Assembly (NCBI GenBank): GCA_000431235.1
Contig: HF988734.1
Coordinates: 155,848 to 219,847, forward strand
DNA: 64,000 nt
DNA from: Coprobacillus sp. CAG:698
Lineage (GTDB): Bacteria > Bacillota_I > Bacilli_A > ML615J-28 > CAG-698
Reading direction: 5' to 3'
Part shown: piece by piece, positions 11,200 through 40,609 of the stretch
How the letters are laid out: each line of letters begins with the position of its first letter
How positions within the stretch are numbered: the stretch's first letter is position 1
The notes under the pieces: model-generated
What the model was told of the DNA's origin: nothing
Databases searched by the model: none
What the model saw: the letters and a program-made list of their open reading frames with translations, nothing else
Position numbers and translations under genes: made by a program

Positions 11200-11402
11200 A
11201 ACGAATACTCATTTTGTTAATGTTTATAGCTTGCTTTGTTTTAGCATTCACATGTTTAGACGGAACACTACTCATAATAAGCTTGCTCGTTCTCTTCCCA
11301 TTGTTTTTCTTTTATTGCCCACTAATATTTTCAGGTAGTAAAGAAGAAAAAACAGAAGAGTTAAAAAATGAAGAAAAAGGTAAGTTTTCCAAATGGGATT
11401 AA
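11196..11402 (+). CDS. Small membrane protein
   Basis: 68 aa with two hydrophobic helices, overlapping both neighbouring genes. Confidence 0.25.
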   Translation: MKRILILLMFIACFVLAFTCLDGTLLIISLLVLFPLFFFYCPLIFSGSKEEKTEELKNEEKGKFSKWD

Positions 11403-24518: not shown

Positions 24519-24523
24519 ATAGA

Positions 24524-24566
24524 ATAACTTCTTGATACTAGAAATGGTATTAAGAAGTTTTTTTAA
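24524..24566 (+). terminator. Rho-independent terminator
   Basis: AACTTCTT…AAGAAGTT stem followed by TTTTTTT. Confidence 0.55.
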
Positions 24567-24685
24567 TTGAAAGTGTTTAAACTTTTTGAAAGAAAATAGT
24601 TATTTTTAGTATTTTTTTTGTAAAATGAATAAATAAGTTAATAAAAGAAAATAATAATATAAAGAAAATAAATAAGGAGGATAAA

Positions 24686-25045
24686 ATGGAAAGAGAAAGA
24701 TGTGAAAACTGTAATGCTCCAGTATTTAATCTTAATGTTGATGAACTTTTTAAAAGATGCTCTTATTGTGGAAGCGCATTAGAAAAAAATGACATTAATG
24801 TTATGACTAATATAATAACAATAGAAGATATTTATTATAATGAAATAATAACAGGCCATAGATTGTATGTTGGTTTAAATCTAAAAAGCGATTATGAATT
24901 TTTAAATTTGAAAAGCGCTGAAATTGATAAAAGAATCGATAAACTAGTTAATAAACTATTTGATTATTTTAAAGCAATTGGGAAAAATAGTGAGAAGAAA
25001 AATATAATAAAAGCTATTAATAATATATATGATATTTTTTATTAA
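24686..25045 (+). CDS. Zinc-ribbon protein, hypothetical
   Basis: N-terminal CxxC…CxxC ('CENCNAP…CSYCGS'); strong AAGGAGG RBS. Confidence 0.4.
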   Translation: MERERCENCNAPVFNLNVDELFKRCSYCGSALEKNDINVMTNIITIEDIYYNEIITGHRLYVGLNLKSDYEFLNLKSAEIDKRIDKLVNKLFDYFKAIGKNSEKKNIIKAINNIYDIFY

Positions 25046-25355
25046 AAATTCATGTTAATACCTCTTAAGTTTTATAACTTATAAGGTTTTTTATTTTTCG
25101 TTTACAAAAAAATATTATAGCTATTACTTTATACCTTGTAAAAGCCAATATATTTAAATTGTTTTGGTAATAGAATTAAAAATTGTGAAACTTGAATTTA
25201 TATGAGTAAGGATTAAAAATCGATAAACCATGTTTATTTTATTAAATATTTAAACAATTTCAAAAATCTGTTGGTTTTTTCACCAATTAATGATATAATT
25301 ATATAGAAATTAAAATATAATATTTTCAACTTGAAGATATTAAAACATTAAATAA

Positions 25356-25377
25356 AACATTATGATATAATAATGTT
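25356..25377. promoter_or_regulatory. Perfect palindrome AACATTAT-GATATAAT-AATGTT overlapping a −10 box; candidate operator at the island promoter
   Basis: 8-bp inverted arms flank TATAAT, 25 bp upstream of the first island gene. Confidence 0.35.
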
Positions 25378-25401
25378 ATAAATTAAAGGAGAAATAAAAC
25401 T

Positions 25402-25953
25402 ATGGAAGTTTATGTAACTGGAAAAAAGATGGCTAACAATGTTGAAGTGCTTTGTTATAAAATGGATTCATTTGAAATAGATAAGAAGACAAAAATAATT
25501 GTCAGCAAAGGATATCGTGCACTTGTGTATATTGACAATAAATATTATGATACATTAAAAACAGGAACATATGAAGAATTCAAAAAAGAAAGAGGAAAAA
25601 GATGTGACATCTATACATTTGTAGAAGTAGATAATAAAATTGAATGTAAATATGGAGTTGGTAAATCTGGAAAAGTTTTAAACTCATATGGTAATTATGC
25701 AGTAACAATTATGGGAAGTTTCCAAGGACTTGAAAATTTAGTAAAGGAATTTAACGTGGAAACTAGAGATATTGATGCAATGGCAATTAGAGATAGAATT
25801 AATCCAATAATTCCAGAAGCATTTTCAAAACCAGAAGTTGTTGATGCAACAACTGCAAAGCAAGTATTAAAAGATACATTAACTAGTAAGTTAGCTACAT
25901 TCGGTTTAAAGTTAGAAGAAATTAACATTGAAGGAATCAATATGGAGGCATAA
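25402..25953 (+). CDS. Hypothetical protein (first gene of the Zn-ribbon protease/TIR island)
   Basis: 183 aa, good RBS, no confidently recognised domain. Confidence 0.4.
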   Translation: MEVYVTGKKMANNVEVLCYKMDSFEIDKKTKIIVSKGYRALVYIDNKYYDTLKTGTYEEFKKERGKRCDIYTFVEVDNKIECKYGVGKSGKVLNSYGNYAVTIMGSFQGLENLVKEFNVETRDIDAMAIRDRINPIIPEAFSKPEVVDATTAKQVLKDTLTSKLATFGLKLEEINIEGINMEA

Positions 25954-25954
25954 A

Positions 25955-26659
25955 ATGGGATTATTTGGAAAAGATTATAAAGAAGAAGATCGTTTATATC
26001 GTATAAAAATTAGAGAAAGATTACTTGAAATACCTGGATTATTTGATTCACCATCATCAAGTAAAATCGTTGATAATGGACTTTGTGCTCCATACTTTAA
26101 AGTTACAAAATCCACTATTGAAATGGATGAAAAAATAGACGAATTATCTAAGAGTATTGCATCTGTAAAAACTGAAATACCTGGATCTCAAAAGGTATAT
26201 GAGGGATTACTTGTGGAAATGTTTACGTATCGTAATGATGAATCAAATGTTTGTAAGGGTAAAGAATTTGAACAACTTTGCAAAAACTGGGAAGTTGATA
26301 AAGCCATGTGCGAAGCAAAAATTAAAATAGAGAATTTAAAAAAGCAAAAAGCCGAATTAGACCCTAATGATTTATATTATAATATGAAAAGTAAAAAAAT
26401 TGATGATGATATAAAAAGTGAAGCCGATACAATTAAGAGATTGTTAGAGGTAATGTTCTTAAATGACAAGTATTTAGGAGTTGTTAAAAAATCTGATATT
26501 GAAAATACAGTTAATGAGTGCGCTAATTCTACATCAAAAGACTTTGCTAAACAAGTTAACTTATTACGTAAGAAACGTGTTAAAAACGATTTAGAAAAGA
26601 ATCGTAAAGAAGATCAATACAAGTTATATTCTAATATGCTTGATGATTCTGATAACTAA
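25955..26659 (+). CDS. Coiled-coil hypothetical protein
   Basis: Starts MGLFGKDY after a GGAGG RBS and overlaps the upstream stop; K/E-rich and predicted helical. Confidence 0.4.
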   Translation: MGLFGKDYKEEDRLYRIKIRERLLEIPGLFDSPSSSKIVDNGLCAPYFKVTKSTIEMDEKIDELSKSIASVKTEIPGSQKVYEGLLVEMFTYRNDESNVCKGKEFEQLCKNWEVDKAMCEAKIKIENLKKQKAELDPNDLYYNMKSKKIDDDIKSEADTIKRLLEVMFLNDKYLGVVKKSDIENTVNECANSTSKDFAKQVNLLRKKRVKNDLEKNRKEDQYKLYSNMLDDSDN

Positions 26660-26662
26660 TGT

Positions 26663-27043
26663 ATGATAATAAAAATAGGTGAAAATACATATACTCAATC
26701 CGATATTCAGGAACTCAGAACGAGCATATGTAAGTTAGAAAATGAAATAAGTGAATGTGATAATACTATTGAATCTAAGATTTCAAAAGAAGAATTAAAA
26801 GCAGCTAAAGCTAAGAAAAAACAACTTCTCAAAGCTCTTAAAGAACTTAAAAAAGCAGAAAGAAGATTAGCTATTGTGTCAGATAAATTCAAAGAAAAAC
26901 CTTTTGAAAGTTACTATGATGACAAAGAAGTTGAGGAAATAATCAAAAAGCAAGCTGATAAATTAGTAGACGAAGAAGTGGAAAAAAATCGTAAAGAAAA
27001 ATCTTATAATCAATTCATTGATATGATTGATGATAAAAAATAA
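26663..27043 (+). CDS. Coiled-coil hypothetical protein
   Basis: 126 aa, highly charged with heptad-like repeats. Confidence 0.35.
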   Translation: MIIKIGENTYTQSDIQELRTSICKLENEISECDNTIESKISKEELKAAKAKKKQLLKALKELKKAERRLAIVSDKFKEKPFESYYDDKEVEEIIKKQADKLVDEEVEKNRKEKSYNQFIDMIDDKK

Positions 27044-27056
27044 ATGGAGAAACATT

Positions 27057-28307
27057 ATGCCTAAAAAATGTAAAGTATGTTCTGGCGAAAAGTACGTTCC
27101 ATGTACTGGAAGACCTGGATATGTAGAATGTATGTTCTGTGGAACTGTGTATTCAAATGATGAAATTGAAGAAACGGTTTCTGAAGAAAAGAAAAGTATA
27201 GATTTAATAAATACAATCGGAAAAGGTGTTTGTGAGATTGTTTGGACAGTTGAGAATTGCATGTACCAAGGAACAGGTTGGTACATTGGAAATGGCAATG
27301 TAATTACAAATGCTCATGTTGTTTTGGATGGCCAAGGATATCTTGGACATAAGTTAAATTGTAAATTTACTTATTTAGGTAAGGATGCAGTTTACATCGG
27401 TGAAGCAGAAAAACTTGATCAAGTAAATGATGTGGCTGTAGTAAAGATTAATGATGATGAACGTTTAAAACCTCATGCAGTTAAACTTGCTGAAAACCCA
27501 CAATATACAATTGGGCAAACAGTATATACTATTGGTAACACTGTTGGAAGAGGATTATCTCCTCAAAAGGGTATGATATCTCGCTTGGATGATATGGAGT
27601 TTAGTGAAGGTTGGAAAAAGCTAAACGCTGTACCATTGCTTCGTACAACACTAAATATCGACCATGGAAATAGTGGTGGACCATTAATTAATTCCAAAGG
27701 TGAAGCAATAGGATTAATGAGCAGTGGTCACGTTCAAGAATCTGAAGTGTCAATTTATTCGCAAACAGGAAGAATGGATAATGTTGTAGGTGTTGGTAGT
27801 ATTAAAGTTGATGAATTAAGTATTGCTGTTAGACTTATATGTGTAAAGAATTTATTGAATTCAAAAGAAATATATAAAGAAAAACAAAGACCACAAATAG
27901 AAGCACCTAAAAATGATGGTTTAGTAGACGTTCTTTTGACTTTGCAAATATCATACCTACCAAGTTTATTCTTAGAAAATTTTGATGTGTTTTCAAAAAT
28001 GATTCAAAGTCAAGAACTATTCTGTACTGTAGTTACCCAACTAGCACAAAATGTAGGGGTTAAATATGAATGTTCAGAAGATGATTTTATAATTAAGCCA
28101 TGTGCTAATGGAAGAAGTGTAATGATATTGTATCCAGATATGGTTATTAACGATAACTTATCAATTGTTCAAGTATTTTCACTTACAAAGAAGAAAGTAT
28201 ATGGGGTATTACCAGCAGGTATTCTTGTAGAGATAAAAGATGGACAATTACACAAAATACAAGACGTAGATTTAAATAACTTAGAAAACATAATTAATAA
28301 TTTATAA
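27057..28307 (+). CDS. Zn-ribbon + trypsin-like (S1/HtrA-fold) serine protease + unknown C-terminal domain
   Basis: N-terminus 'CKVCSGEKYVPCTGRPGYVECMFCGT'. Catalytic triad context 'VITNAHVV' (His), 'DVAVVKIN' (Asp) and 'GNSGGPLIN' (Ser). A ~150-aa C-terminal extension has no known motif. Confidence 0.7.
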   Translation: MPKKCKVCSGEKYVPCTGRPGYVECMFCGTVYSNDEIEETVSEEKKSIDLINTIGKGVCEIVWTVENCMYQGTGWYIGNGNVITNAHVVLDGQGYLGHKLNCKFTYLGKDAVYIGEAEKLDQVNDVAVVKINDDERLKPHAVKLAENPQYTIGQTVYTIGNTVGRGLSPQKGMISRLDDMEFSEGWKKLNAVPLLRTTLNIDHGNSGGPLINSKGEAIGLMSSGHVQESEVSIYSQTGRMDNVVGVGSIKVDELSIAVRLICVKNLLNSKEIYKEKQRPQIEAPKNDGLVDVLLTLQISYLPSLFLENFDVFSKMIQSQELFCTVVTQLAQNVGVKYECSEDDFIIKPCANGRSVMILYPDMVINDNLSIVQVFSLTKKKVYGVLPAGILVEIKDGQLHKIQDVDLNNLENIINNL

Positions 28308-28327
28308 GTAGAAAGGAGTAATAAAGT

Positions 28328-28852
28328 ATGAATGAAATGCTTAAAGCACTTAAAGAATACTTAGATAACGGAATAATTAGAGTTTTATGTAACCCAATAA
28401 CAAATTATTCATGCGTATCTTTTCATGATATAGAACATGGAGTTTATGTTAATACTGGATTAGGAGCATCTAGTATTCGTAGTGTTGGTTCATTACTTAA
28501 AATATATGAAAGTAAGAATAGTTTGACACCTAAAAAAATTTGTGAAATAACAAAAATTCCTGAAAGTGCATATGATAGAATTAAAAATCAATCTACTGAT
28601 TTTGATATTTATGATAAAAATCAAATATGTGTTCTTGCAATATGCTTTAAGCTAACACCTACACAAATTAGAAGGTTTTTGAATGCAGCTCATATTTTAT
28701 TACAACCACTATCATATTCTTTTGATGCAGCTTTTGATTTTTATATTAATAATTGGCATTACACAATAGATAACAAAGAAAACATTAATAACTTTTTAAA
28801 ATGTTGTAAGTATTCAGAAGAATATTTAGAAAAATGTTTGGGGTTCCACTAA
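28328..28852 (+). CDS. HTH-containing hypothetical protein
   Basis: 'TPKKICEITKIPESAYDRIKNQSTDFDIYDKNQICVLAICFKLT' resembles an XRE/Cro-type helix-turn-helix. Confidence 0.4.
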   Translation: MNEMLKALKEYLDNGIIRVLCNPITNYSCVSFHDIEHGVYVNTGLGASSIRSVGSLLKIYESKNSLTPKKICEITKIPESAYDRIKNQSTDFDIYDKNQICVLAICFKLTPTQIRRFLNAAHILLQPLSYSFDAAFDFYINNWHYTIDNKENINNFLKCCKYSEEYLEKCLGFH

Positions 28853-29874
28853 TGGCAAACATAAGTAAGTTATTAAGAATAATAGAAAAGCTAAAAAAAG
28901 AAGAAGGTGCTTTATTTGAAAGGTATCCTGATGAAAAATCAATAGATAAAGTTATTGATGAATTCACAACAATTATTACTAGAAGACAAGACGTAGAAAA
29001 ACCCGTAAATAGACTAGAATTAATTAAGCTAATTCTTGATCTAAAAGTGTTGGGTTTAGAAAATGTGAAGAAAATGTATGAAGTTTGTGGATATCCATTT
29101 AATTACAAAAAAACACTTGGTGATTATTATGATGAAGCTTTAAGAATATTTGTTGAAAATAATCTTTTTGATGGCAATCTCCCTGATAATTATCGATATG
29201 TTTACGAAATTAATAGCATTGATATTGTAGACAATTATGAGAAATATGAATATGTTTTAAAGAATATTATTTTAACACTTTACAAGATGAAATTTGGAAA
29301 AATAAATGGTGAGGAAGAACATCTTCTCTATAATCTTGCAATGCTTGAAGATAGATTTCTAGATACTGATCAAAATATAAAAAGATTACTTTATCCTAAT
29401 TGTAAAGAAATGGATGCCTTTAGAAATTATTTACTAAAATATGATGAAGAAAATCAAGGAACATATGCTCCTGAATATCAAGAAATAATACACGTTATAT
29501 TATTAACTATTTTAGATAATTTTTATGAAGACCGAAAAACATGTAAGATGTTTAGAAGAGTAATAAGTGATGTTCCAAGAAGTGTTTATAAAAAAATGTT
29601 TATGGATAAACTATTTGTTACTGAAATGTTTTCATATAATTACTTTGAATCATTTTATAAAAAAGTATTCTTAGATGATGACTATCAAGAAAAGGAAAAA
29701 GCATTAATAGATTTATTTACGATAATATTTACTAATCTTAAGACAATAAATGTGCCTATTGAAATTCCCCAAACAGTAGCTATGAAAATTAATTATAAAT
29801 TCTTAGGGCTAGAAGTTAAAGAAATGGTTAATCACTTTAAAAAAATTAAACATGAAATTGATAGAAGATTATAA
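28852..29874 (+). CDS. Alpha-helical hypothetical protein (possibly TPR-like); start overlaps the upstream stop (TAATG)
   Basis: ~340 aa, all-helical composition, translationally coupled to the HTH gene. Confidence 0.4.
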   Translation: MANISKLLRIIEKLKKEEGALFERYPDEKSIDKVIDEFTTIITRRQDVEKPVNRLELIKLILDLKVLGLENVKKMYEVCGYPFNYKKTLGDYYDEALRIFVENNLFDGNLPDNYRYVYEINSIDIVDNYEKYEYVLKNIILTLYKMKFGKINGEEEHLLYNLAMLEDRFLDTDQNIKRLLYPNCKEMDAFRNYLLKYDEENQGTYAPEYQEIIHVILLTILDNFYEDRKTCKMFRRVISDVPRSVYKKMFMDKLFVTEMFSYNYFESFYKKVFLDDDYQEKEKALIDLFTIIFTNLKTINVPIEIPQTVAMKINYKFLGLEVKEMVNHFKKIKHEIDRRL

Positions 29875-29885
29875 ACAAATTAAAT

Positions 29886-29904
29886 TAGGCCACTGGCCTT
29901 TTTT
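29886..29904 (+). terminator. Short GC hairpin (AGGCC ACT GGCCT) + TTTTTT
   Basis: Located after the helical protein gene and before the TIR gene promoter (TGTATAAT at 29953–29960). Confidence 0.45.
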
Positions 29905-30002
29905 AAAAGAAGTTTTAACTTGAAGATTTTTGTAGACAAAAACATAAAATAGTGTATAATATACTTATAAAAATAAGTCAATCACAAAGAAAGGTGAAAC
30001 TC

Positions 30003-30893
30003 ATGGAAGAAACAAAATCATTAATATGTACAAGATGTGGATCACATTATTTAGAAAAACAAAGTGAAACTGAATATAAGTGTTTAAGTTGTGATGCTAT
30101 AATTACTAAGGAAAAAGCCTTAGATTTTGAAGAACAATATAAAAAACTTCAAGCTGAAGGTAAGGCATTTGATATAGCTAACTTAAGAAGTTTAGTTAGA
30201 AAAGCACTAGAAGGGCATATTGATAAAGATTCACTTATTAAGTATTCACAAGATATATTAAGGGTTTTACCAGGAGATGTGCTTTCACTATTTTACATTA
30301 AATTTGCTAATCGTATAATTTATCCTAGTGATTATGAATATTATTTAAATCTTCTTTTGAAAGAAGCAACACAAACAGAAATAGATGAAATAATAGATAT
30401 AATAATAACTAATGCCAGATTTAGAGAAAAAGAACAGGTAATTAACATAATAAATAAGTTCTATAAAGGAAGAGAAGATAAACTTATAGAGCTAGAAAAA
30501 GCTTTAAAACAAAGAACGAAAGAAATAGATTTATTTAGTGATATACCTAGAGATATATTTATTTGTCATTCTTCACTAGATAAAGATAAAGTAAATGAAA
30601 TATTAAAGACGTTAGAAGAAGATGGAAATACATGCTGGATATCATCACGTAATATTCCATGGGATAGTGATAACTATTGGTTAAATATTGAAAAAGCAAT
30701 AAAATCATGTAATATCTTCTTATGCTTAAATAGTGTAAATACAATGCAAAGCAATGACTGCAGACGTGAAGTAGAAATAGCGAGCACTTTAAACAAGAAA
30801 AGAATAGAGTATAAGTTAGATGAATCTAGAGATATAACATTATTTAAACAGTTCTTTACAGGACAATGGTATCAATACAATGCAAAGCAATGA
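30003..30893 (+). CDS. Zn-ribbon + TIR-domain protein (C-terminus truncated by a frameshifting tandem duplication)
   Basis: N-terminus 'CTRCGSHY…CLSCDA'. C-terminal TIR motifs 'DIFICHSSLDKDKV…CWISSRNIPWDSDNYW…EKAIKSC…REVEIA' include the conserved Glu. The frame ends 4 codons into the second repeat copy. Confidence 0.7.
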   Translation: MEETKSLICTRCGSHYLEKQSETEYKCLSCDAIITKEKALDFEEQYKKLQAEGKAFDIANLRSLVRKALEGHIDKDSLIKYSQDILRVLPGDVLSLFYIKFANRIIYPSDYEYYLNLLLKEATQTEIDEIIDIIITNARFREKEQVINIINKFYKGREDKLIELEKALKQRTKEIDLFSDIPRDIFICHSSLDKDKVNEILKTLEEDGNTCWISSRNIPWDSDNYWLNIEKAIKSCNIFLCLNSVNTMQSNDCRREVEIASTLNKKRIEYKLDESRDITLFKQFFTGQWYQYNAKQ

Positions 30894-31015
30894 TTGCAGA
30901 CGTGAAGTAGAAATAGCAAGCAGTCTAAACAAGAAAAGAATCGAATATAAGTTAGATGATGCTAGAGATATAACATTATTTAAAAACTTCTTTACAGGAC
31001 AGTGGATAACAAATA
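30744..31015 (+). repeat. Diverged direct tandem duplication, 2 × 136 bp (~93% identity)
   Basis: Copy 1 is 30744–30879 and copy 2 is 30880–31015. The ATGCAAAGCAATGA(C/T)TGCAGACGTGAAGTAGAAATAGC… block is seen twice, with a period of 136 = 3n+1. Confidence 0.85.
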
Positions 31016-31245
31016 TTAATGACTTATTAGATAAAGTATATGACTTAAAACACAAAGAAACAAAGTTAAAAGAAGAAGCTAAAAAGCTCTTAAAAAGCAA
31101 AGAATATGAAAAAGCCAAAGAAGTATTTTTAGAAGTAAATGATGATGAAGCAAAAAAATATATAGTGTTATGTAATACTTTAATTTCCTCAACAAAGTTA
31201 ATGAAAAATAGCATGTATGAAGAAGCTAAAGCAAAACTATTATAA
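30880..31245 (+). CDS. Detached C-terminal portion of the TIR protein (re-reads the duplicated segment in frame, then a helical tail)
   Basis: Starts with 'MQSNDCRREVEIASSLNKKRIEYKLDDARDITLFKNFFTGQW', nearly identical to the end of the TIR ORF, then continues into a 75-aa helical extension. Confidence 0.5.
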   Translation: MQSNDCRREVEIASSLNKKRIEYKLDDARDITLFKNFFTGQWITNINDLLDKVYDLKHKETKLKEEAKKLLKSKEYEKAKEVFLEVNDDEAKKYIVLCNTLISSTKLMKNSMYEEAKAKLL

Positions 31246-31272
31246 ATAGATGATATAATCTATACCAAAGAT

Positions 31273-33546
31273 TTGCTTGAGGAATGTAGCCACAAGATAT
31301 CTTTAAATAGTACCATTAATTATGAAGTAAATAATAATATAAAGGAAGAAACAACTACCAGAGAAGAAACAAATAAAAATGACATATTAAAAAAAGCAAA
31401 GTTTTTGCTCAATCAAACAAAAGATTATCAAGAAGCTGAAAAGATACTATTTGAAGAAATAGCATATAATGAGAATAATTTTGAATTATGGTATTATTAT
31501 CTATATGCAATAACAAAAGGCTTAAAAGATAATAACCATAAAAATATTAATTTGGCATTTGAAAATTTAAAGAAATTAGTACCTAATGAAAGAAAAAAAG
31601 ATATTCAAGATTTAGATAATAGATTAAATCCAGTTACAATAAAACGATTAGAAGAAGAGAAGGAAAGGAAAATAGAAGAAGAAAGAGAAAAAGTACAAAA
31701 AGAATATGACGCAAAAATAGAAAAAGAACAAGAAAAACTAAATATAATAAAACTTAAAGTAAAACAAATTGATGAAGAAACTGATAATAAGATAAATAAT
31801 CATCATAAAATTCTTATGAATGCAATTGATGAATTTAAGAAAAAGAATATAATTAGTAAAACAAGTAAAACTGATTTTATTTACTTTGGGTCATATCCTC
31901 AAACATTAAAAAATGCCAATGTGAAAATAATTAGTAAAGAAACTGATGAAAGAGGATATTATTCAGGAAGTGATGGAAGTAAGTATCAATTGGTAAACAA
32001 AGGTTTATTTAAAAAGTTCTATTACAAAGTAGAGCCTATTAGATGGCTAATTGTTAAACATGATAAAGAAAGTATGTTTGTTATTAGTGATATGATAATT
32101 GACAACCATATATATGATAATTATACGTATAATTATGAAGAATCAGAAATAAGATCATGGCTTAATAAAGAATTTTATAACAAAGCCTTTACTGATAAGG
32201 AAAAGAAAATTATACAAACAACTTTAGTTGATAATTCTCTTACATCAACATGTGAAATAAATAACCCATATATATGTAGTAATACAATTGATAAAATATT
32301 CTTATTAAGTACTGAAGAAGTGACTAGCTCAGCATATGGATTTTCTAAAAACAAATTACCTTGTAAGAAAGTAACAGATTATGCTAAAGAGTTAGGGGCA
32401 ATAGAAATAATGGGTCAAGGAAATTATTATCTTCGTTCCTCAAAAAAATATAAAGATACATATAATGTTTGTATGGTTACCTCAGATAAGTCACTTAGTG
32501 CTACGTTAATAAATAGTTCTTTTGTAGGTACAGTTCCAGCAATGCTTCTATCATTAAGTCTAGATACAAATGTTTGTAAAGAACGCTGTGTAAAAGAATT
32601 AAATAGTGATAAAGAATTAGAAGCGCTAAGAGAAGAAAAGAATAAGCTTTTAAAAAATCAAACATTAGTAAAAGATATGATAACAAAGCTAGAAGCAGAA
32701 AAGAAAGAAACTCTACTAAAGTATATAGGATTAATAACTAGCTTAAAGAAAGATACTATAAGTTTTGGTTCATATCCTCAAACAATAAAAGACAAAAATG
32801 TTACGATAACAACTACTTTCCCTGATAATAACGGTTATTATTTAGGTAGTGATGGTGAATATTATGCTAAGCTAATAGCTAATCCTCATATCAAAAATGA
32901 GAAGTATTACTATTCAAATAATGAAGAAATAATAAGTGGGAAAGAATATTATTTCAAAGTTGAACCAATTATCTTTAATAAAATTCACGGGACAAATAAG
33001 GATTTCTATTTGTCATCAAAAATAATTGAAACAATGGCTTATCAGGATGTATATTATCAAGATGGAAATAAATATTATGTAAAAACAGGAGTAGCAGCAA
33101 ATAATTATGAGTATAGTAAAGCTAGAAAAGTGTTAAACAATGACTTTTTATACAAAGCCTTTACCCAAACTCAAAGAGATTTGCTTGAAAAAACTTATGT
33201 TGATAATAGTGCTGAATCAACTGGTGAGTCTGAAAATATACATGCCTGCCCTTCCACATATGATTATGTATTTTTGCCAAGTATAGAAGAAATGACTTTG
33301 AGATCTAATGGATTTAAAGCTAAAAATGAAGAAGATAAAAATAGAGTTAAAGAAACAACAGATTATGCTAAGGCTAATGGAGCTTATTTACGTAGTGGTT
33401 ATCAAAACTATTTCTTGAGATCACCAGATTCATGGCTTACAAGTTTTGTGAAAACTGTAACTACTAACGGTAAAATTATAGGCAATGATTTTAGCTATCC
33501 ACATAATGGTATATGCGTAGGAATTGTTTTAAAGCAATCTAAATAG
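31273..33546 (+). CDS. Large protein with a helical N-terminal region, coiled-coil and two tandem ~250-aa repeat domains (FGSYPQT…EPI…WL…YYLRS… type)
   Basis: The internal repeat 'KTDFIYFGSYPQTLKNANVKI…YYKVEPIRWLIV…' is paralleled by 'KDTISFGSYPQTIKDKNVTI…YYFKVEPIIFNKI…'. No signal peptide. Confidence 0.5.
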   Translation: MLEECSHKISLNSTINYEVNNNIKEETTTREETNKNDILKKAKFLLNQTKDYQEAEKILFEEIAYNENNFELWYYYLYAITKGLKDNNHKNINLAFENLKKLVPNERKKDIQDLDNRLNPVTIKRLEEEKERKIEEEREKVQKEYDAKIEKEQEKLNIIKLKVKQIDEETDNKINNHHKILMNAIDEFKKKNIISKTSKTDFIYFGSYPQTLKNANVKIISKETDERGYYSGSDGSKYQLVNKGLFKKFYYKVEPIRWLIVKHDKESMFVISDMIIDNHIYDNYTYNYEESEIRSWLNKEFYNKAFTDKEKKIIQTTLVDNSLTSTCEINNPYICSNTIDKIFLLSTEEVTSSAYGFSKNKLPCKKVTDYAKELGAIEIMGQGNYYLRSSKKYKDTYNVCMVTSDKSLSATLINSSFVGTVPAMLLSLSLDTNVCKERCVKELNSDKELEALREEKNKLLKNQTLVKDMITKLEAEKKETLLKYIGLITSLKKDTISFGSYPQTIKDKNVTITTTFPDNNGYYLGSDGEYYAKLIANPHIKNEKYYYSNNEEIISGKEYYFKVEPIIFNKIHGTNKDFYLSSKIIETMAYQDVYYQDGNKYYVKTGVAANNYEYSKARKVLNNDFLYKAFTQTQRDLLEKTYVDNSAESTGESENIHACPSTYDYVFLPSIEEMTLRSNGFKAKNEEDKNRVKETTDYAKANGAYLRSGYQNYFLRSPDSWLTSFVKTVTTNGKIIGNDFSYPHNGICVGIVLKQSK

Positions 33547-33583
33547 ACAAGTAGCAATAAAAAGCACAACTTGTCTTTTTGTT
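33546..33583 (+). terminator. Rho-independent terminator (AGACAAGT…ACTTGTCT + TTTTT)
   Basis: 8-bp perfect stem directly after the stop of the repeat-domain gene. Confidence 0.55.
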
Positions 33584-33779
33584 TGCTATTTAGATAAATA
33601 ATATAACTATATAAGGATTAATATGTACTTAAAGATGCATAAGTTAGATAGGTTCCAAGATTTAATTTTCATTAACTAACAATTTATCCCAATATGTTAT
33701 AAGTTATAACAAATAAATTGAAAAATTCCTTTAAAAGTGCTATAATAAATAATCAAATGAATTGATTTGGAGGATGAAT

Positions 33780-36700
33780 ATGAAGTCTATATTTAAATTA
33801 ATATATATGGTTGCAATAGTTTTTTTAACTTGTCTTTTCTTTATTTCTTGTAAAGAAATAGATAAAAACATTAGTAGCATAGAAATTAGTAATCTTGAAG
33901 AAGTTAGTATATTAAAACTTAATAATTTTAAGTATTCAGATATAGAGTTAACTGTTAAATATGAAAATGGTGAAGATGAAATAATTAATCTTTCAAGTTC
34001 GATGATGACAAAAGAAGATGCTTTAAAATTTAAACAAGTAGGTAAGCATGAAGTATATATTTACTATAAAGATATGAGCATAAAGTATAACTTTGAAATA
34101 ATAGCAAGTTCAAATGATTTCGATAATGTTATTTTCACTCTTGATGAAACATCATTTATATATTCAGGTATGCCATGTAAACCTAATGTCATTGTAAGCG
34201 GTAAGGATTTAACTCTAGATGAAGACTATTCGGTTGAATATATTAATAATATAAATGCTGGTACTGGAGTAGTTATTATAAAAGGCATTAATGATTATAA
34301 AGGCGAAAAAGTTTTAACATTTACAATTGATAAGAAAACTTTGATTATCAAAGCTAATAACATAACAATTAGTGGTAATGAAAAACCAGTATTTACAGTA
34401 TCATATAATGGATTTGTTTATACAGATGATGAGAATTCACTAATGGGAACTTTAAAAATTACTTGTGATTATGATGATAGTATTAGTGGAAATTATGAAA
34501 TTAATGCAAGTGGTTATACAAGTAATAATTATAATATTATTTATGAAAAAGGAACTTTAAGTGTAAATAACATTTATCTCGATAAAGCCGTTATTGAATT
34601 AGAATATTTATCGCATGCGTACACAGGACGTGAACTAAAACCTGATTGCTTAATTACAATTGATGGCCAAACAGTTAGTAGTTATAATTATGAAATCATA
34701 TATGAAAATAATAAAGATGCTGGAATAGCAAAAGTTGTGATTGTTGGTAAAAACTTATACTATGGAAGAATTGAAAAAGAATTCACTATTACAAAAGTGA
34801 ATTTGGAAATATCAATAAACAATGAAGAAATAAAGTATTTAGACTTAATACCTAATTATAAGATAAACTATATAGGATTTGTAAATTTAGATAATGAATC
34901 TTCTTTAGATGGAAAATTAAATATTGAGTGTTCTTATGATGGAACAGAAATAGGTTCTTATCCTCTTATCTTGAGTGGATTAACTTCTAACAATTATAAT
35001 ATTATTTATAAAAATGGACTATTAAAAGTTAATAGTAGAGAAATTGATAGCGTAACTATTGAATATGAAGAAATAACTTATGCAGGAAAATATTTAACAC
35101 CTGAGATCAAATGCTTAGTAAATAAAAATGAGTTAGTGCTTGGCAAAGATTTTGTAGTCAAATACGAAAATAACTTAAACTCAGGGAAAGCAGTAGTATA
35201 CATTTCTGGTCAGGGTAACTTTAAAGGAACGATAACAAAAACATTTACCATAAATAAAGCCAAACTTAATATTAAAGTAACTAATATGACTATTGATTAT
35301 GGTGATGATTATCCAGAGTTTGGTTATATTGCAAAAGGATTTCAAAATGAAGATAATATCTTAAGTTTATCAGGAACATTATTATTTAATACTACTTATA
35401 AAAATAATAGTAAGATAGGTGTTTATGATGTTTATGCTTATGGCGTACAATCAGATAATTATCTTATATCATTTGAAAAAGGATTATTAACTGTAAATAG
35501 TAAAGAAATTATCGAAGAAAATATAATCTTAGATAATACTTCATTTACTTATACGGGAAGAGAAATCAATCCAATTGTCAAGGTGAATGTAAACAAAACT
35601 TTAGGGCTAAACACTGATTACAAAATCGAAATACAAGATAATTTATTTGCTGGAACAGGTAAAGTAATTGTAACAGGAATAGGTAATTACTCTGGAATAG
35701 TTACCAAACAATTTACAATTGCTCCAAAAGACTTACATATAGTGATAAATGGATTCAACATAAAGTATGGTGATGAATTAGCAAGTTATGATGTTTCTTA
35801 TAATGGATTTGTAAATGGTGAAGATCTTGCAAACCTAGAAGGTAATTTACTAATCACTACTGATTATAAGAAATTTAGTAATGTGGGTACATACTTAATC
35901 GAAGGTACCGGATTAACATCTAACAATTATAAGATTATATATGATTGTGGGAAAATAAATGTTTCTCCACAGAATTTAAGCAATGTAACGTATAGTATCG
36001 AGAGTAAAGACTATGTATATAATGCTGAAGCAATTAAACCAGAATTAACACTATCATATATGCTTATAAAACTTAAAGAAAATACTGACTATACTATTTC
36101 TCTTTTAAATAATATAAATTATGGCAAGGCAACGTTAGAAATTAATGGTATAAATAATTATACAGGAACCATCAAAGATACTTTTATAATACAAAAGAGA
36201 AATATAACTATAAAATCAAATGATTATAGTTTAAAATATCTAGAAGAAGTTGAAAAATACGATTGTATTATTACAAATCTTCCTGATGCATATAATCAAG
36301 ATTTAGTAAAAACAGAATTAGTTTTCTCAACAACTTATGAAAAAGGTAAAAAAATAGGTAACTATGAATTAATAGTTTCTGGATTTGCTCAAGATAACTT
36401 TAATGTAACTTATGAAAAAGGAATTATAACTTTAGCATACACAGATAAATTTAATGGTGAAGGTACACTAGATAATCCATACATTTTATCAAATGTTAAT
36501 GATATAATGGGATTGAGTGAAAAAGTGTTATCAGGTGAAAAGTATAAAAATAAATATTTTATTTTATCTAATGATATTGATTTTTCAGGATATTCACTTA
36601 CACCAATAGGTGATAAAGATCATTACTTCCAAGGTTATTTTAATGGCAAAGGAAGGGAAATAAAGAACTTTAGTATTACAGGTTCTAAGTCATCTTATAT

Positions 36701-38780
36701 TGGTTTATTTGCTAATGTAGTTGATGGTGAAATTACAAACTTAGGATTAAATAATATCGTAATTTCAAACAACAATTGTGCTAATTTGGGTGCCCTTGTT
36801 GGATTTATTAAAAATGGCATCATCAAGAATGCATATGTAAAAAATGCAAATTTAAGCAATAATACTAATGCAGTAATTGGTTCAATTTGTGGTTATTTAG
36901 TGAATTCAAAAATATACAATGCATATTTTGTTTCTACTTTAAATATAACTGGTGGATTTGTAACTATAGGTTCAATAGCTGGTAAAATAGAAAACTCTAT
37001 AATTGACTCATCTTATGGTTGCATAAATGCTGATATAAATATTGAAGATGGAAGTTTTAGTGGTATTACTTCTGCTACTAATGAATCTAGTATTACAAAT
37101 ACGTTTATTGATGGTAATATTAATGTTACATCGGATAAAGCTAAAATAAATGAAATATCTGAAGGAATTAAAGGAACATATGTAAGAAGCGTTAATTTAC
37201 TTAATACTTTAACAATAACAAAGAATGAAGAAAAGATTAGTATAAAACTAGTAAAGAGCCTAAGTGAAGTTGTGTCAATATTTAAGAAAAATATAGACAT
37301 TAATGATTGGGTGATATTTGATGATAAACTTCCTCAACTTACATTTGAGGAAAATGATGGTGTAAAACTAATTAATAAGCCTCAAAGTTTAAAGAAGGAA
37401 TATGATGGTTTAAGTGCAAGTTACTTTGGGTTTACATTAGACAAATCATATATTAACGTAGGAACTTACGAAGCTATTTTGAAACTAAAGGAAGGATTTA
37501 TGTGGTCTGATGGTACTACTGATGATATTACAATATCATTAGAGATAACTAAAAAGAACCTCTATATCAATATTAATAGCTTACATATACATGTAGGTGA
37601 TAATTATGACTTAACATTTGCTTCATATGGATTAGTAAAAAGTGATGAAAACTTACTTGATGAAATTACTTTGATTTGTGATTATAATTTAAATTCAGGA
37701 ATATTCTTAATTAATATGCTTCCAGTTGAGTTAGATAATTATAATGTTATAATTAGAGAAGGATATTTGTACGTGAGTGAAAATGGATACAACGATTGGT
37801 CAGTTTGGGATGGAAATATTTCTGATGCTACTTTGGAAGGAAGTGGTACAAGTTTAGATCCATATGTAATTGATTCAGCTGCAAAATTAGCTTCACTAGT
37901 GTTCAAAACAAAAAATGGTGAACCAACAAATTATTACTATGAATTACGTACAAACATTGATTTAAATTATAATGAATGGGAACCAATTGCTGATGGGAAT
38001 GATTTGTATAGTTTTGAGGGCTATTTTAATGGTAATGGCTATGTAATTAAAAATTTGAAGATAACGAAAAATCATCGTTATGTTGGTTTATTTGGCTGTA
38101 CAACAAATGCTCAAATTGAATCTTTACGTTTGGAAAACGTTGATATCGACTTAAACACATATGTAGAGGCGTATATAGGTAGTTTAATTGGGTACTCAGA
38201 ATCTACACAAGTTTCGAAGGTAAGTAGTGAGGGCCAAATAAAAGTAAATGTTTTATGTTCTTATAATATAATATGTGGTGGATTAATAGGTTATCAAACT
38301 ATGCAAACTACACTTTCTAATGTATATAGTGAAGTAAATATTTCTATCACAAATAGCGATGAACAGTCATCACAATCTCCATTTAATGTTGGTGGAATAG
38401 CAGGATATTTACAAGATGGAAGTATCCTTACATGCTATGCAATAGGGGATATTAAAATACAAAATCTTAACGCAAGAACATACGTTGGTGGAATTATTGG
38501 CTATGGTAATAAAGGTCAAATCACGAATGCAATTTCCTATATGAATATTGATTTAAAAGGTAAACTATACTATATTGATTATATAATAGGAGGACAACAA
38601 CAAGTTACAAGTACAAACATTGTTGCACTTAATGAAAATAAAGTAATTGTAAATGATACTACAGTTGTTATATCTTTGGGAACATTATATAGTAGTGTTG
38701 AACTTGAAACGTTTGTTCTAGAAAACTTTGATGACCACATTTGGGATATCGATGACTATCTATATCCAACCTTACATTAA
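33780..38780 (+). CDS. Giant surface lipoprotein with ≥7 MBG-type repeats and two parallel-β-helix-like (GLUG-like) regions
   Basis: Signal peptide with a weak lipobox ('…LTCLFFISCKE'). Repeated 'YNIIYEKGTLSVN / YNIIYKNGLLKVN / YLISFEKGLLTVN / YKIIYDCGKINVS / FNVTYEKGIITLA' MBG-domain signatures. Two 'G(E/S)GT(L/S)(D/L)(N/D)PY(I/V)(L/I)' + 'GLF…N' blocks. GGAGGA RBS. Confidence 0.7.
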   Translation: MKSIFKLIYMVAIVFLTCLFFISCKEIDKNISSIEISNLEEVSILKLNNFKYSDIELTVKYENGEDEIINLSSSMMTKEDALKFKQVGKHEVYIYYKDMSIKYNFEIIASSNDFDNVIFTLDETSFIYSGMPCKPNVIVSGKDLTLDEDYSVEYINNINAGTGVVIIKGINDYKGEKVLTFTIDKKTLIIKANNITISGNEKPVFTVSYNGFVYTDDENSLMGTLKITCDYDDSISGNYEINASGYTSNNYNIIYEKGTLSVNNIYLDKAVIELEYLSHAYTGRELKPDCLITIDGQTVSSYNYEIIYENNKDAGIAKVVIVGKNLYYGRIEKEFTITKVNLEISINNEEIKYLDLIPNYKINYIGFVNLDNESSLDGKLNIECSYDGTEIGSYPLILSGLTSNNYNIIYKNGLLKVNSREIDSVTIEYEEITYAGKYLTPEIKCLVNKNELVLGKDFVVKYENNLNSGKAVVYISGQGNFKGTITKTFTINKAKLNIKVTNMTIDYGDDYPEFGYIAKGFQNEDNILSLSGTLLFNTTYKNNSKIGVYDVYAYGVQSDNYLISFEKGLLTVNSKEIIEENIILDNTSFTYTGREINPIVKVNVNKTLGLNTDYKIEIQDNLFAGTGKVIVTGIGNYSGIVTKQFTIAPKDLHIVINGFNIKYGDELASYDVSYNGFVNGEDLANLEGNLLITTDYKKFSNVGTYLIEGTGLTSNNYKIIYDCGKINVSPQNLSNVTYSIESKDYVYNAEAIKPELTLSYMLIKLKENTDYTISLLNNINYGKATLEINGINNYTGTIKDTFIIQKRNITIKSNDYSLKYLEEVEKYDCIITNLPDAYNQDLVKTELVFSTTYEKGKKIGNYELIVSGFAQDNFNVTYEKGIITLAYTDKFNGEGTLDNPYILSNVNDIMGLSEKVLSGEKYKNKYFILSNDIDFSGYSLTPIGDKDHYFQGYFNGKGREIKNFSITGSKSSYIGLFANVVDGEITNLGLNNIVISNNNCANLGALVGFIKNGIIKNAYVKNANLSNNTNAVIGSICGYLVNSKIYNAYFVSTLNITGGFVTIGSIAGKIENSIIDSSYGCINADINIEDGSFSGITSATNESSITNTFIDGNINVTSDKAKINEISEGIKGTYVRSVNLLNTLTITKNEEKISIKLVKSLSEVVSIFKKNIDINDWVIFDDKLPQLTFEENDGVKLINKPQSLKKEYDGLSASYFGFTLDKSYINVGTYEAILKLKEGFMWSDGTTDDITISLEITKKNLYININSLHIHVGDNYDLTFASYGLVKSDENLLDEITLICDYNLNSGIFLINMLPVELDNYNVIIREGYLYVSENGYNDWSVWDGNISDATLEGSGTSLDPYVIDSAAKLASLVFKTKNGEPTNYYYELRTNIDLNYNEWEPIADGNDLYSFEGYFNGNGYVIKNLKITKNHRYVGLFGCTTNAQIESLRLENVDIDLNTYVEAYIGSLIGYSESTQVSKVSSEGQIKVNVLCSYNIICGGLIGYQTMQTTLSNVYSEVNISITNSDEQSSQSPFNVGGIAGYLQDGSILTCYAIGDIKIQNLNARTYVGGIIGYGNKGQITNAISYMNIDLKGKLYYIDYIIGGQQQVTSTNIVALNENKVIVNDTTVVISLGTLYSSVELETFVLENFDDHIWDIDDYLYPTLH

Positions 38781-38801
38781 TTAATTAGCTCTAAGGGTTA
38801 A

Positions 38802-39971: not shown

Positions 39972-39986
39972 GGTGGGTAATGACTT

Positions 39987-40184
39987 ATGATAAAAAATAT
40001 CTTTATGTATCTTCTGGATTTAGTTCTTGAATGTGGTTTAGTAATATGGTTTTTATATAACGTAGGTTCTAATAAATATTTAATTATTCCTATAATTGCA
40101 GTTAGCATTCTTATTATTAGCACAATAATTTGCTTTATTAAAACAGTTTTTATAGGAAGAAAATATTATATCTTCTATGTTTAA
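39987..40184 (+). CDS. Putative RHS immunity protein, N-terminal copy (2-TM), truncated by a tandem duplication
   Basis: 65-aa two-helix membrane protein immediately 3' of the toxin tip; it ends 7 codons past the duplication junction. Confidence 0.45.
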   Translation: MIKNIFMYLLDLVLECGLVIWFLYNVGSNKYLIIPIIAVSILIISTIICFIKTVFIGRKYYIFYV

Positions 40185-40317
40185 TTATTGAGTGTGGTTT
40201 AATAGCATGGTTTGTCTATAATTTAGGTTCTGATAAATATTTTATTATTTCCATAACTGTAGTTAGCATTCTTCTTATTATAACAATAATTAGCTTTATT
40301 AAAACAGTTTTTATAGG
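39993..40317 (+). repeat. Diverged direct tandem duplication, ~2 × 160 bp, with a +1 indel in copy 2
   Basis: '…CTTCTGGATTTAGTTCTTGAATGTGGTTTAGTAATATGG…GGAAGAAAATAT' is followed by '…CTTCTATGTTTAATTATTGAGTGTGGTTTAAATAGCATGG…GGAAGAAAATAT'. The period is 160 bp between the TGTGGTTTA landmarks at 40032 and 40192. Confidence 0.8.
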
Positions 40318-40609
40318 AAGAAAATATTTAAAAATTGAAGATGATAAATTATTAATTAAACAAAAAGAGAAAATAATAGCATCAATTAATAAAAATGAAT
40401 TGGAAAAATTAGTTGTTATATTTGATACATTTTCTGATCATATTGATTTCATTAAATTTCGTTATAATAATAAAAAATACTCTTTCCAGATTCCTAGAGA
40501 AATTGAGACTGAATTAAAAACATTTGTAAGTGATTTAAATTACAAACGAAAAACAGATTTGTTATTAGAAATTATTAATTTAATTGCAATGTATTTTTAT
40601 CATAGTTAG
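40202..40609 (+). pseudogene. Second, frameshifted copy of the immunity gene carrying the authentic C-terminal domain
   Basis: The frame opens after a TAA at 40199 and encodes 'IAWFVYNLGSDKYFIISITVVSILLIITIISFIKTVFIGRKY…', paralogous to the first copy, then a unique 95-aa soluble C-terminus. There is no start codon at its head; the track's 40400 ORF is its tail. Confidence 0.45.

What the first reader, a model, noticed from the sequence alone, without database searches (positions are those of the whole stretch)
30744..31245. Diverged 136-bp tandem duplication splits the TIR gene into a truncated TIR ORF and a detached tail ORF
Two head-to-tail 136-bp copies (~10 mismatches) sit at the 3' end of the TIR domain. 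136 is 3n+1, so the first reading frame terminates 4 codons into copy 2 (…FTGQWYQYNAKQ*). A new ATG-initiated frame (30880) re-reads copy 2 and continues into a 75-aa helical tail. The ~7% divergence argues against an assembly artefact. The locus is either inactivated, frameshift-regulated, or expressed as two polypeptides.
Basis: seen in the sequence. Interest (0 to 1): 0.55.

Follow-up and report, generated by a model that had tools for sequence, protein, structure and literature searches.

The report
Probable false tandem duplication in TIR gene
The 136-base repeat that appears to break this immune-type (TIR) gene is really in the sequence, but it is most likely two variant versions of one gene segment laid end to end by a composite metagenome assembly, so it is probably not a biological feature.

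Summary
The repeat is in the sequence as described. Copy 1 is 30734-30869 and copy 2 is 30870-31005, with 13/136 mismatches. It shifts the frame and splits a Zn-ribbon/TIR gene into a 296-aa ORF and a 121-aa ORF.

The divergence does not argue against an artefact. It argues for one.
- The window comes from Coprobacillus sp. CAG:698, a genome reconstructed from human-gut metagenomes.
- Deleting copy 1 gives a 368-codon ORF that differs at 2 of 1621 bases from an independent contig. Other contigs at 99.4% identity also lack the repeat.
- Copy 1 is 98% identical to a paralogous TIR gene. Copy 1 versus copy 2 gives dN/dS of 0.15, so the two copies diverged as functional genes, not in place.
- A second frame-breaking repeat lies 9 kb downstream (40007-40328, period 161). 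It is exactly population allele a followed by allele b, and its second copy starts at the first polymorphic base.
- Both split forms are found only in the CAG:698 record.

I put about 0.7 on a false duplication and 0.25 on a real, private recombination lesion. An old in-place duplication, programmed frameshifting and a retroelement repeat pair are rejected.

The parts
29933..29960 (+). Promoter-like site for the TIR transcription unit. A terminator-like hairpin of the upstream gene lies at 29887-29899.
   Evidence: 11/12 match to the consensus. No terminator-like site was found between 30003 and 33546, which fits an originally single gene.
30003..30893 (+). ORF1 (296 aa; CCY08221.1): Zn-ribbon, helical domain and a TIR domain that lacks betaE/alphaE. 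It ends in 7 out-of-frame codons (YQYNAKQ*).
30651..30724 (+). 74-nt stretch identical in the locus's own allele (L001) and in the paralog type (L010, L009, L008). The switch from own sequence to paralog-type sequence happens here.
   Evidence: the window matches L001 up to 30724 and matches the L010 type from 30725. L010 differs from the window at 30610-30650.
30734..30869 (+). Copy 1 of the 136-nt block. This is the paralog-type version and the extra material. It encodes residues 245-289 (alphaC with the CRRE motif, betaD, alphaD).
   Evidence: 13 mismatches to copy 2 and L001, and 3/150 mismatches to L010. It was seen at this locus in no other assembly examined.
30870..31005 (+). Copy 2 of the 136-nt block. 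This is the locus's own allele, 100% identical to L001.
30880..31245 (+). ORF2 (121 aa; CCY08222.1): copy 2 from Met248, then betaE, alphaE and the helical tail. Its ATG is the first in-frame ATG after any upstream frameshift.
31243..31245 (+). TAA nonsense codon where relatives have CAA (Gln369). It separates the TIR-plus-tail part from the DUF6273 part. It is a real population allele.
   Evidence: L001 and P0019 share the TAA. P0002/P0024, P0020, P0021, P0022 and P0028 read ...AKLLQIDDIIYTKDLLEEC...
31246..33546 (+). Continuation of the ancestral gene: helical region, E/K-rich coiled coil and two DUF6273 (C-type-lectin-like) domains. It is annotatable as ORF3 from the TTG at 31273 (757 aa).
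   Evidence: dN/dS against L007 and L004 is 0.14-0.16.
40007..40167 (+). Second false-duplication candidate, copy 1. It equals population allele a of a 153-aa membrane-protein gene that follows the YD-shell gene.
   Evidence: L027 is identical to the window over 34561-40167.
40168..40328 (+). Second candidate, copy 2. It equals population allele b and starts exactly at the first polymorphic base.
   Evidence: L029 and L030 are identical here. Period 161 (3n+2). The resulting 65-aa ORF (CCY08226.1) is found only in CAG:698.

Best explanation
The 136-nt tandem repeat is most likely a false duplication made when the Coprobacillus sp. CAG:698 genome was assembled from mixed metagenomic reads. One contig end ran through a 74-nt stretch shared with a paralogous TIR gene and into the paralog-type version of the next ~140 nt. 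The neighbouring contig began with the locus's own version of the same segment. Because the two overlapping ends differ by ~10%, they were not merged and were joined end to end. On this reading the true gene is a single 368-codon ORF (Zn-ribbon, helical domain, TIR, helical tail), as in independent assemblies. That ORF is itself the front fragment of an ancestral TIR-DUF6273 gene, cut by a genuine TAA at 31243. Shown: the anatomy, the identity of each copy, the absence of the repeat elsewhere, the source of the window, and the second case. Inferred: the assembly step that produced the join.
For: 1. The source is a reconstruction from metagenomes. ORF1, ORF2 and the 65-aa ORF equal CCY08221.1, CCY08222.1 and CCY08226.1 of Coprobacillus sp. 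CAG:698, and each is seen on that one 350-kb contig only. Such bins are population-level composites (PMC4914512).
2. The window minus 30734-30869 differs from the independent contig L001 at 2 of 1621 bases. L007 is syntenic at 99.4% over 24003-37361 and has no repeat. Forms of this gene without the duplication sit on dozens of contigs; P0024 alone is on 46.
3. Copy 2 is 100% L001. Copy 1 is 98% identical to the paralog-type gene L010 and only 90.7% to L001. Paralogs do share a genome: L011 and L014 lie on one contig, and P0013 and P0007 are in one MAG.
4. dN/dS between the copies is 0.15 (7 synonymous, 6 non-synonymous; Fisher p = 0.002). The differences arose in two functional genes, not by decay in place.
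5. The second repeat (40007-40328) is allele a (exactly L027/L028) followed by allele b (exactly L029/L030). The backgrounds are at least 99.94% identical, the alleles differ only within 40007-40131, and copy 2 starts at the first variant base.
6. These are the only two such repeats in 64 kb, and both break reading frames.
7. The junction 42-mer is absent from JGI metagenome contigs.
8. Variant contigs placed side by side are a described class of assembly error (PMC2864568; PMC9516828).
Against: A pure de Bruijn assembler cannot invent junction k-mers. Both junctions have at most 1-2 nt of microhomology and there are no Ns, so a scaffolding, gap-closing or joining step has to be assumed, and I could not verify one. 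A simple 'two bubble arms in series' model fits the second junction (copy 1 ends 36 nt after the last variant) but does not fit the geometry of the first. No reads were available. Absence from other assemblies is also what a real but private mutation would give. The copy-1 version was not found as an allele at this locus, only in paralogs, so the donor is inferred. I did not confirm that such a paralog is present in the CAG:698 assembly.
Confidence: 0.7

Rival explanations
1. The repeat is real but private and recent. A break or stalled exchange in the TIR gene was repaired by copying ~140 nt from a paralogous TIR gene, after pairing in the shared 74-nt stretch. The new end was then joined to the other end without homology. 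This resembles homology-facilitated illegitimate recombination or aberrant ectopic gene conversion. It would leave a paralog-derived copy next to the resident one, shift the frame by +1, and remove betaE/alphaE from the TIR domain, inactivating the protein.
For: Junction microhomology of 1-2 nt is typical of illegitimate joining. The switch to paralog-type sequence lies inside a 74-nt identical stretch, which could be a homologous crossover point. Alleles of this gene are visibly mosaic: dS against L004 is 0.46 upstream of the block and 0.05 downstream. Other members of the family carry independent disruptions inside the TIR domain (L005 frameshift at residue ~214, P0009, L006 stop at 300), so loss of TIR function does recur. 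Short-read graph assemblers do not normally create new junctions.
Against: It needs two independent rare illegitimate events within 10 kb of one genome. The second would have to place both population alleles in tandem with its boundary exactly on the first variant base. Both forms are found only in one 2013-era assembly built from metagenomes. No independent assembly shows either junction.
Confidence: 0.25
2. An old duplication that diverged in place and is kept as a functional two-ORF gene or a gene regulated by +1 frameshifting.
For: Both copies keep open frames with conservative substitutions. ORF2's ATG overlaps ORF1's stop by 14 nt, which would allow coupled re-initiation.
Against: Contigs at 99.9% (L001) and 99.4% (L007) identity lack the repeat, so it is younger than 0.1-0.6% divergence while its copies differ by 9.6%. 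L001 cannot be a revertant. Recombination between the copies would give a chimeric copy, not pure copy 2, and there is no homology at the required deletion end points. No more distant relative (60-88% identity) has the repeat. There is no slippery or shift-prone site at AAG CAA TGA. The nearest AGGA lies 16 nt upstream of ORF2's ATG, further than is usual for a ribosome-binding site. A fused product would carry a 45-residue insertion inside the TIR fold.
Confidence: 0.03
3. The two copies are a template-repeat/variable-repeat pair of a diversity-generating retroelement (DGR), prompted by the DGR found next to a relative of this gene.
For: In L006 a relative of this gene family is a DGR target (bAvd and a reverse transcriptase; TR 10843-10929, VR 10225-10311).
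Against: Only 4 of 13 mismatches fall on adenines, whichever copy is taken as template. The copies are tandem and lie in the TIR domain, not in the lectin-like C-terminus. No reverse transcriptase or Avd homolog is in the window (tblastn).
Confidence: 0.01

Closest known systems
False ('heterotype') duplications in assemblies of polymorphic samples: duplicated overlapping contigs (Kelley & Salzberg 2010, PMC2864568; Ko et al. 2022, PMC9516828)
   Same: Two variant versions of one segment lie next to each other. Each version matches a sequence that exists singly in the population. The source is an assembly of a mixed population. The result looks like a recent diverged duplication and creates false gene fragments.
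   Different: This error class was described for diploid eukaryote assemblies and much longer segments. Here the source is a bacterial metagenomic species, the blocks are 136 and 161 nt, and at the first site the extra version is paralog-like rather than allelic. The read and mate-pair evidence that defines the class could not be examined.
Homology-facilitated illegitimate recombination / aberrant ectopic gene conversion between paralogs (known from natural transformation in Acinetobacter and Streptococcus; recalled from memory, not checked here)
   Same: One side of the foreign tract lies in a stretch of identity and the other side joins with 1-2 nt of microhomology.
   Different: The outcome here is a neat in-register tandem repeat. 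It occurs twice within 10 kb, and each time the block coincides with a polymorphic patch. That is not expected from random illegitimate joins.
Bacterial TIR-domain proteins (Pfam TIR_2; Thoeris ThsB-like effectors)
   Same: The unduplicated protein has a TIR_2 domain above the Pfam threshold, a TIR fold, and a Glu-containing CRRE motif in alphaC at the usual place for the catalytic residue.
   Different: The architecture is unusual: N-terminal Zn-ribbon, helical domain, TIR, helical tail, coiled coil and C-terminal DUF6273 lectin-like domain(s). No ThsA-type partner was detected among the neighbouring genes I scanned. Matches to ThsB models are weak (25 bits).
Multidomain DGR variable proteins with N-terminal signalling domains (cyanobacteria, PMC7517822) and DUF6273 C-type-lectin-like DGR targets (PMC10743442)
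   Same: The relative in L006 carries its variable repeat at the C-terminus of the DUF6273 part of this gene family, next to Avd and a reverse transcriptase. TIR-like domains have been listed among rare N-terminal domains of such proteins.
   Different: There is no DGR in this window, and the repeat under study is unrelated to DGR mutagenesis.

Membership tests
Assembly false duplication (variant contigs placed adjacently) | Each copy corresponds to a sequence that occurs singly at the locus, or in a paralog, in the population | tested here: met
   Copy 2 is 100% L001 and copy 1 is 98% L010. At the second site, copy 1 is exactly L027/L028 and copy 2 is exactly L029/L030.
Assembly false duplication (variant contigs placed adjacently) | The source assembly comes from a genetically mixed sample | tested here: met
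   The window's proteins are CCY08221.1, CCY08222.1 and CCY08226.1 of Coprobacillus sp. CAG:698, a metagenomic-species assembly. That reads from several samples may have been pooled is recalled from Nielsen et al. 2014, not verified here.
Assembly false duplication (variant contigs placed adjacently) | The duplication is absent from independent assemblies of the same population | tested here: met
   L001, L007 and L004 at the first site and L027-L030 at the second lack it. The split ORFs occur on one contig only, against dozens of contigs with forms that lack the duplication. The junction 42-mer is absent from JGI metagenome contigs.
Assembly false duplication (variant contigs placed adjacently) | Read depth and mate pairs fit one copy better than two | not testable with these tools
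   No reads were available.
TIR domain (Pfam PF13676 TIR_2) | Profile match above the gathering score | tested here: met
   51.8 bits against a cut-off of 28, E = 1.4e-13.
TIR domain (Pfam PF13676 TIR_2) | Flavodoxin-like betaA-betaE / alphaA-alphaE fold | tested here: met
   This holds for the unduplicated protein: AlphaFold2 pLDDT 82 with elements at residues 183-304, and best Foldseek matches to the TIR-domain proteins SARM1 and TIR-1 and to the MyD88, RPS4 and BtpA TIR domains. ORF1 as written lacks betaE and alphaE.
TIR domain (Pfam PF13676 TIR_2) | Catalytic glutamate and NAD-cleaving activity | not testable with these tools
   A conserved CRRE motif (Glu256) sits in alphaC. Its equivalence to the catalytic Glu is inferred. 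The sequence search of solved structures gave only weak TIR matches.
Thoeris defence system (ThsA + ThsB) | A TIR protein matching ThsB together with an adjacent ThsA (SIR2 or Macro with SLOG) | tested here: not met
   ThsB models match only weakly (E = 2e-6, 25 bits). No ThsA-like neighbour appeared in the Pfam or PADLOC scans of the flanking genes I tested. Not every ORF in the wider region was scanned.
Programmed +1 ribosomal frameshift gene | The two-frame arrangement is conserved in relatives and there is a shift-prone site at the overlap | tested here: not met
   All relatives have a single frame across this point. The overlap AAG CAA TGA has no slippery or hungry-codon context (by inspection).
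DGR template/variable repeat pair | Mismatches confined to template adenines, and a reverse transcriptase nearby | tested here: not met
   4 of 13 mismatches fall on A in either direction. No RT or Avd is in the window.

The most novel reading that the evidence does not exclude
The tandem arrangement is real. In one strain of this gut Coprobacillus, a break in a fast-evolving, mosaic TIR/C-type-lectin receptor gene was patched by copying from a paralog and sealed without homology. This would catch an intermediate of paralog-driven gene conversion that knocks out the TIR module. The neighbouring toxin-immunity gene would have undergone the same kind of event. That would point to a recurrent, patch-wise exchange process at hypervariable conflict genes that sometimes fails and leaves allele-plus-allele tandems.
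Probability: 0.22. Interest if true: 0.4.

Novelty: not a real feature. Interest (0 to 1): 0.12.

Why it matters
As a biological claim it matters little. The most likely outcome is that CCY08221.1 and CCY08222.1 (and CCY08226.1) are annotation artefacts of a 2013-era metagenomic-species assembly and should be read as one 368-aa protein (and one 153-aa protein). It matters as a method lesson for the scan. A diverged tandem repeat inside a gene of a metagenome-derived genome is a warning sign of two variants laid in series, not evidence against an artefact. The test is cheap: delete one copy and look for the result in independent assemblies. The more interesting biology lies around the repeat. 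It is a family of TIR proteins fused to DUF6273 lectin-like domains, which is repeatedly split or disrupted in different lineages and is the target of a diversity-generating retroelement in one relative.

Tried and rejected
1. In-place duplication followed by divergence. Rejected because near-identical contigs lack the repeat, and because the differences between copies show purifying selection.
2. L001 as a revertant by deletion. Rejected because recombination between the copies would give a chimeric copy, and there is no homology at the required end points.
3. Programmed frameshifting or a conserved two-ORF design. Rejected: not conserved and no shift site.
4. DGR TR/VR pair. Rejected by the mismatch spectrum and the lack of a reverse transcriptase.
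5. Stop-codon reassignment to explain the TAA at 31243. Considered and dropped. Close relatives have CAA at that codon and ORFs in the window end normally, so it reads as a simple nonsense allele.
6. A Velvet-like 'bubble arms in series' geometry. It fits the second junction (k-1 = 36) but not the first, so I use it only as a hint.
7. Searches that led nowhere:
- The exact-product look-ups for ORF1 and ORF2 found no contig.
- The scan of GTDB representative genomes found only 34%-identical relatives.
- The first attempt with alignment A2 failed for lack of conserved columns.
- The sequence search of solved structures gave no useful TIR alignment.
- The Nielsen et al. 2014 paper itself is not in the library.

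Full report
OBSERVATION. The repeat exists as described. Tandem Repeats Finder gives 30738-31005, period 136, 2.0 copies, 91% matches, no indels, score 459. A base-by-base comparison, plus comparison with an unduplicated contig, puts the register at copy 1 = 30734-30869 and copy 2 = 30870-31005, with 13 mismatches. The upstream ORF starts at the ATG at 30003 (preceded by AAAGGTGA) and ends ...FFTGQW-YQYNAKQ* at 30893. It is 296 aa long. The +1 frame opens at the ATG at 30880 and runs to 31245, giving 121 aa. ORF1 carries a Pfam TIR_2 domain (E = 1.4e-13). A self-comparison over periods of 60-800 nt finds only one other repeat of this kind in the window, and there are no Ns.

WHAT THE UNDUPLICATED GENE LOOKS LIKE. 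Deleting copy 1 gives a 368-codon ORF. A search of 5.8 billion protein clusters returned P0001, which matches that ORF over its full length with one residue different. Its contig (L001, 1621 nt) differs from the window minus 30734-30869 at only two bases, 29979 and 30725. A 61-kb human-gut contig (L007) is syntenic with the window over 24003-37361 at about 99.4% identity and has no repeat.

An AlphaFold2 model of P0001 (pLDDT 82.4) places the TIR elements as follows: betaA 183-189, alphaA 194-206, betaB 211-213, alphaB 225-235, betaC 236-243, alphaC 251-262, betaD 266-271, alphaD 280-283, betaE about 290 and alphaE 293-304, followed by a helical tail. The best Foldseek matches are the TIR-domain proteins SARM1 and TIR-1 and the MyD88, RPS4 and BtpA TIR domains. 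The duplicated block is residues 245-289. ORF1 as written therefore lacks betaE and alphaE, and ORF2 lacks betaA-betaC.

THE DIVERGENCE IS NOT AGE. The flanks differ from L001 by less than 0.1%, whereas copy 1 differs from copy 2 and from L001 by 9.6%. The repeat cannot be old. L001 also cannot be a revertant, because recombination between the copies would leave a chimeric copy, and the deletion end points share no homology. The differences between the copies are 7 synonymous and 6 non-synonymous, all conservative. dN/dS is 0.15 and Fisher p = 0.002. They arose in two separately functional genes.

Copy 1, taken as 30720-30869, is 98% identical (3/150 mismatches) to L010. L010 is a gene of the same family that is only about 66% identical in protein overall. 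It comes from the same metagenome as L007 at similar coverage. Upstream of 30650 the window follows L001 and not L010. Positions 30651-30724 are identical in both. From 30725 the window follows the L010 type. Family members do coexist in one genome: L011 and L014 lie on one contig, and P0013 and P0007 are in one MAG. So copy 2 is the resident allele and copy 1 is a paralog-type patch.

SOURCE, AND A SECOND CASE. Exact look-up identifies ORF1, ORF2 and a 65-aa ORF at 39987-40184 as CCY08221.1, CCY08222.1 and CCY08226.1 of Coprobacillus sp. CAG:698. Each is seen on a single 350,512-nt contig. CAG genomes are metagenomic-species reconstructions, that is, population-level composites (PMC4914512). 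From memory, Nielsen et al. 2014 assembled reads pulled from MetaHIT samples; I could not check this.

Forms of the TIR gene without the duplication occur on dozens of contigs. P0024 alone is on 46.

The only other tandem repeat in the window (40007-40328, period 161 = 3n+2, 85% identity) breaks a 153-aa membrane-protein gene that follows a YD-shell gene. Four independent contigs have that gene intact. They fall into two alleles that differ at 24 sites confined to 40007-40131, in backgrounds at least 99.94% identical. The window's copy 1 equals allele a (L027 has 0 mismatches in 5607 nt). Copy 2 equals allele b (L029, L030). Copy 2 begins exactly at the first polymorphic base, and copy 1 ends 36 nt after the last one. 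Both alleles are common as intact 153-aa proteins, and the split form is unique to CAG:698.

INTERPRETATION. The window holds two frame-breaking repeats within 10 kb. Each consists of two naturally occurring versions of one polymorphic patch laid in series. Each is unique to one assembly built from metagenomes. This is the pattern of variant contigs placed side by side (Kelley & Salzberg 2010, PMC2864568; Ko et al. 2022, PMC9516828). At the first site, the 74-nt stretch shared with the paralog gives an obvious place for an assembly path to stray into the paralog's version.

I put this explanation at about 0.7. The main caveat is that both junctions are new sequence with at most 1-2 nt of microhomology. 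A graph assembler alone would not produce that, so a scaffold-joining or gap-closing step must be assumed. No reads could be examined.

The main rival, at about 0.25, is a real and private lesion: repair copied from the paralog after pairing in the 74-nt identity, sealed by an illegitimate join. This family is visibly mosaic. dS against L004 is 0.46 upstream of the block and 0.05 downstream. TIR-disrupting mutations also recur in relatives: a frameshift at residue ~214 in L005, P0009, and a stop at 300 in L006. If the repeat is real, the outcome is inactivation of the TIR module. It would not be regulation.

Programmed frameshifting and a conserved two-ORF design are rejected. The arrangement is not conserved, and there is no shift site.

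The gene belongs to a family that can be DGR-diversified, so I tested whether the repeat is a template/variable pair. Only 4 of 13 mismatches fall on adenines in either direction, and the window has no reverse transcriptase.

WHAT THE GENE REALLY IS. Relatives read straight through the window's stop at 31243. They have ...AKLLQIDDIIYTKDLLEEC..., with Gln where the window has TAA, and continue into what is here the next ORF (31273-33546, two DUF6273 domains). Intact single ORFs of 746-828 aa exist in L008/L009, L011 and L013/L014, and a 759-aa form (P0028) exists in the window's own lineage. They combine a Zn-ribbon, a helical domain, TIR, a helical tail, a coiled coil and DUF6273.

The TAA is a genuine allele, shared by L001 and P0019. 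Other strains split the gene elsewhere. P0024 and L004 have a frameshift in an A-run at about residue 487. L007 has a 119-nt indel at about residue 532. Both halves still show dN/dS of 0.14-0.16, like the neighbouring genes. One promoter-like site lies upstream at 29933-29960, and no terminator-like site occurs before 33546.

PADLOC gives only weak ThsB-like matches. No ThsA-type partner appeared among the neighbouring genes I scanned, so this is not Thoeris. The window is chromosomal: it carries genes for LysRS, an EPSP-synthase-fold enzyme, Dus and others.

VERDICT. The feature is most likely not real, and interest is low. The surrounding TIR-DUF6273 family is recorded below as the more interesting lead.

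Noticed in passing
window 40007-40328 (gene 39987-40609): A second diverged, frame-breaking tandem repeat (period 161, 85% identity) lies in a 153-aa membrane-protein gene just after a YD-shell/Rhs-like gene (38802-39971). That gene is probably its immunity gene. Copy 1 is population allele a and copy 2 is allele b. The split form is unique to CAG:698.
   Followed up: yes
window 31243-31245 and 31246-33546: The 'tail ORF' ends at a TAA where relatives have Gln. The TIR gene and the following DUF6273 gene are fragments of one ancestral gene of about 750-1135 aa. Close strains split it at different points: a nonsense codon at 369, an A-run frameshift at about 487 (on 46 contigs or more), and a 119-nt indel at about 532. 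Both halves stay under purifying selection (dN/dS about 0.15). This may be recurrent gene fission rather than decay.
   Followed up: partly
L006 9071-12022 (ENA BRIT20-1 scaffold_177): In a relative, the DUF6273 end of this TIR-family gene is the target of a diversity-generating retroelement: bAvd 10429-10791, reverse transcriptase 11138-12022, template repeat 10843-10929, variable repeat 10225-10311, with 9 of 13 mismatches at template adenines. This is a TIR protein with a hypermutable lectin-like C-terminus. Three further DUF6273 paralogs lie just upstream.
   Followed up: partly
window 30003-31245 compared with L004, L007, L010, L016: Alleles of the TIR gene are strongly mosaic. Patches of tens to hundreds of nt switch affinity between lineages, and dS against L004 is 0.46 upstream of the repeat and 0.05 downstream. 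This suggests frequent patch-wise exchange among alleles and paralogs.
   Followed up: partly
L005 6312-8659; P0009; L006 8001-8903: Independent disruptions inside or just after the TIR domain occur in other lineages: a frameshift after CWIS at residue ~214, a frameshift after ITKAI, and a stop at residue 300. After such a break the downstream remainder is called from the same Met248 as the window's ORF2 (seen in L005); P0011 and P0012 start at the same Met, although their upstream sequence was not examined.
   Followed up: partly
window 27027-29874: Upstream neighbours are a 426-aa protein with an N-terminal Cys-rich Zn-ribbon-like segment and a trypsin-like protease domain (PADLOC matches only the protease part of RT-Protease_XI models), and two proteins of 174 and 346 aa with no family match. 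This may be a small defence or conflict island with lower G+C (0.25-0.26).
   Followed up: no
window 31650-31737: E/K-rich coiled-coil region with imperfect 27-nt and 6-nt repeats. It lies next to the region (about 31730-31838) that contains the 119-nt length difference from L007.
   Followed up: no
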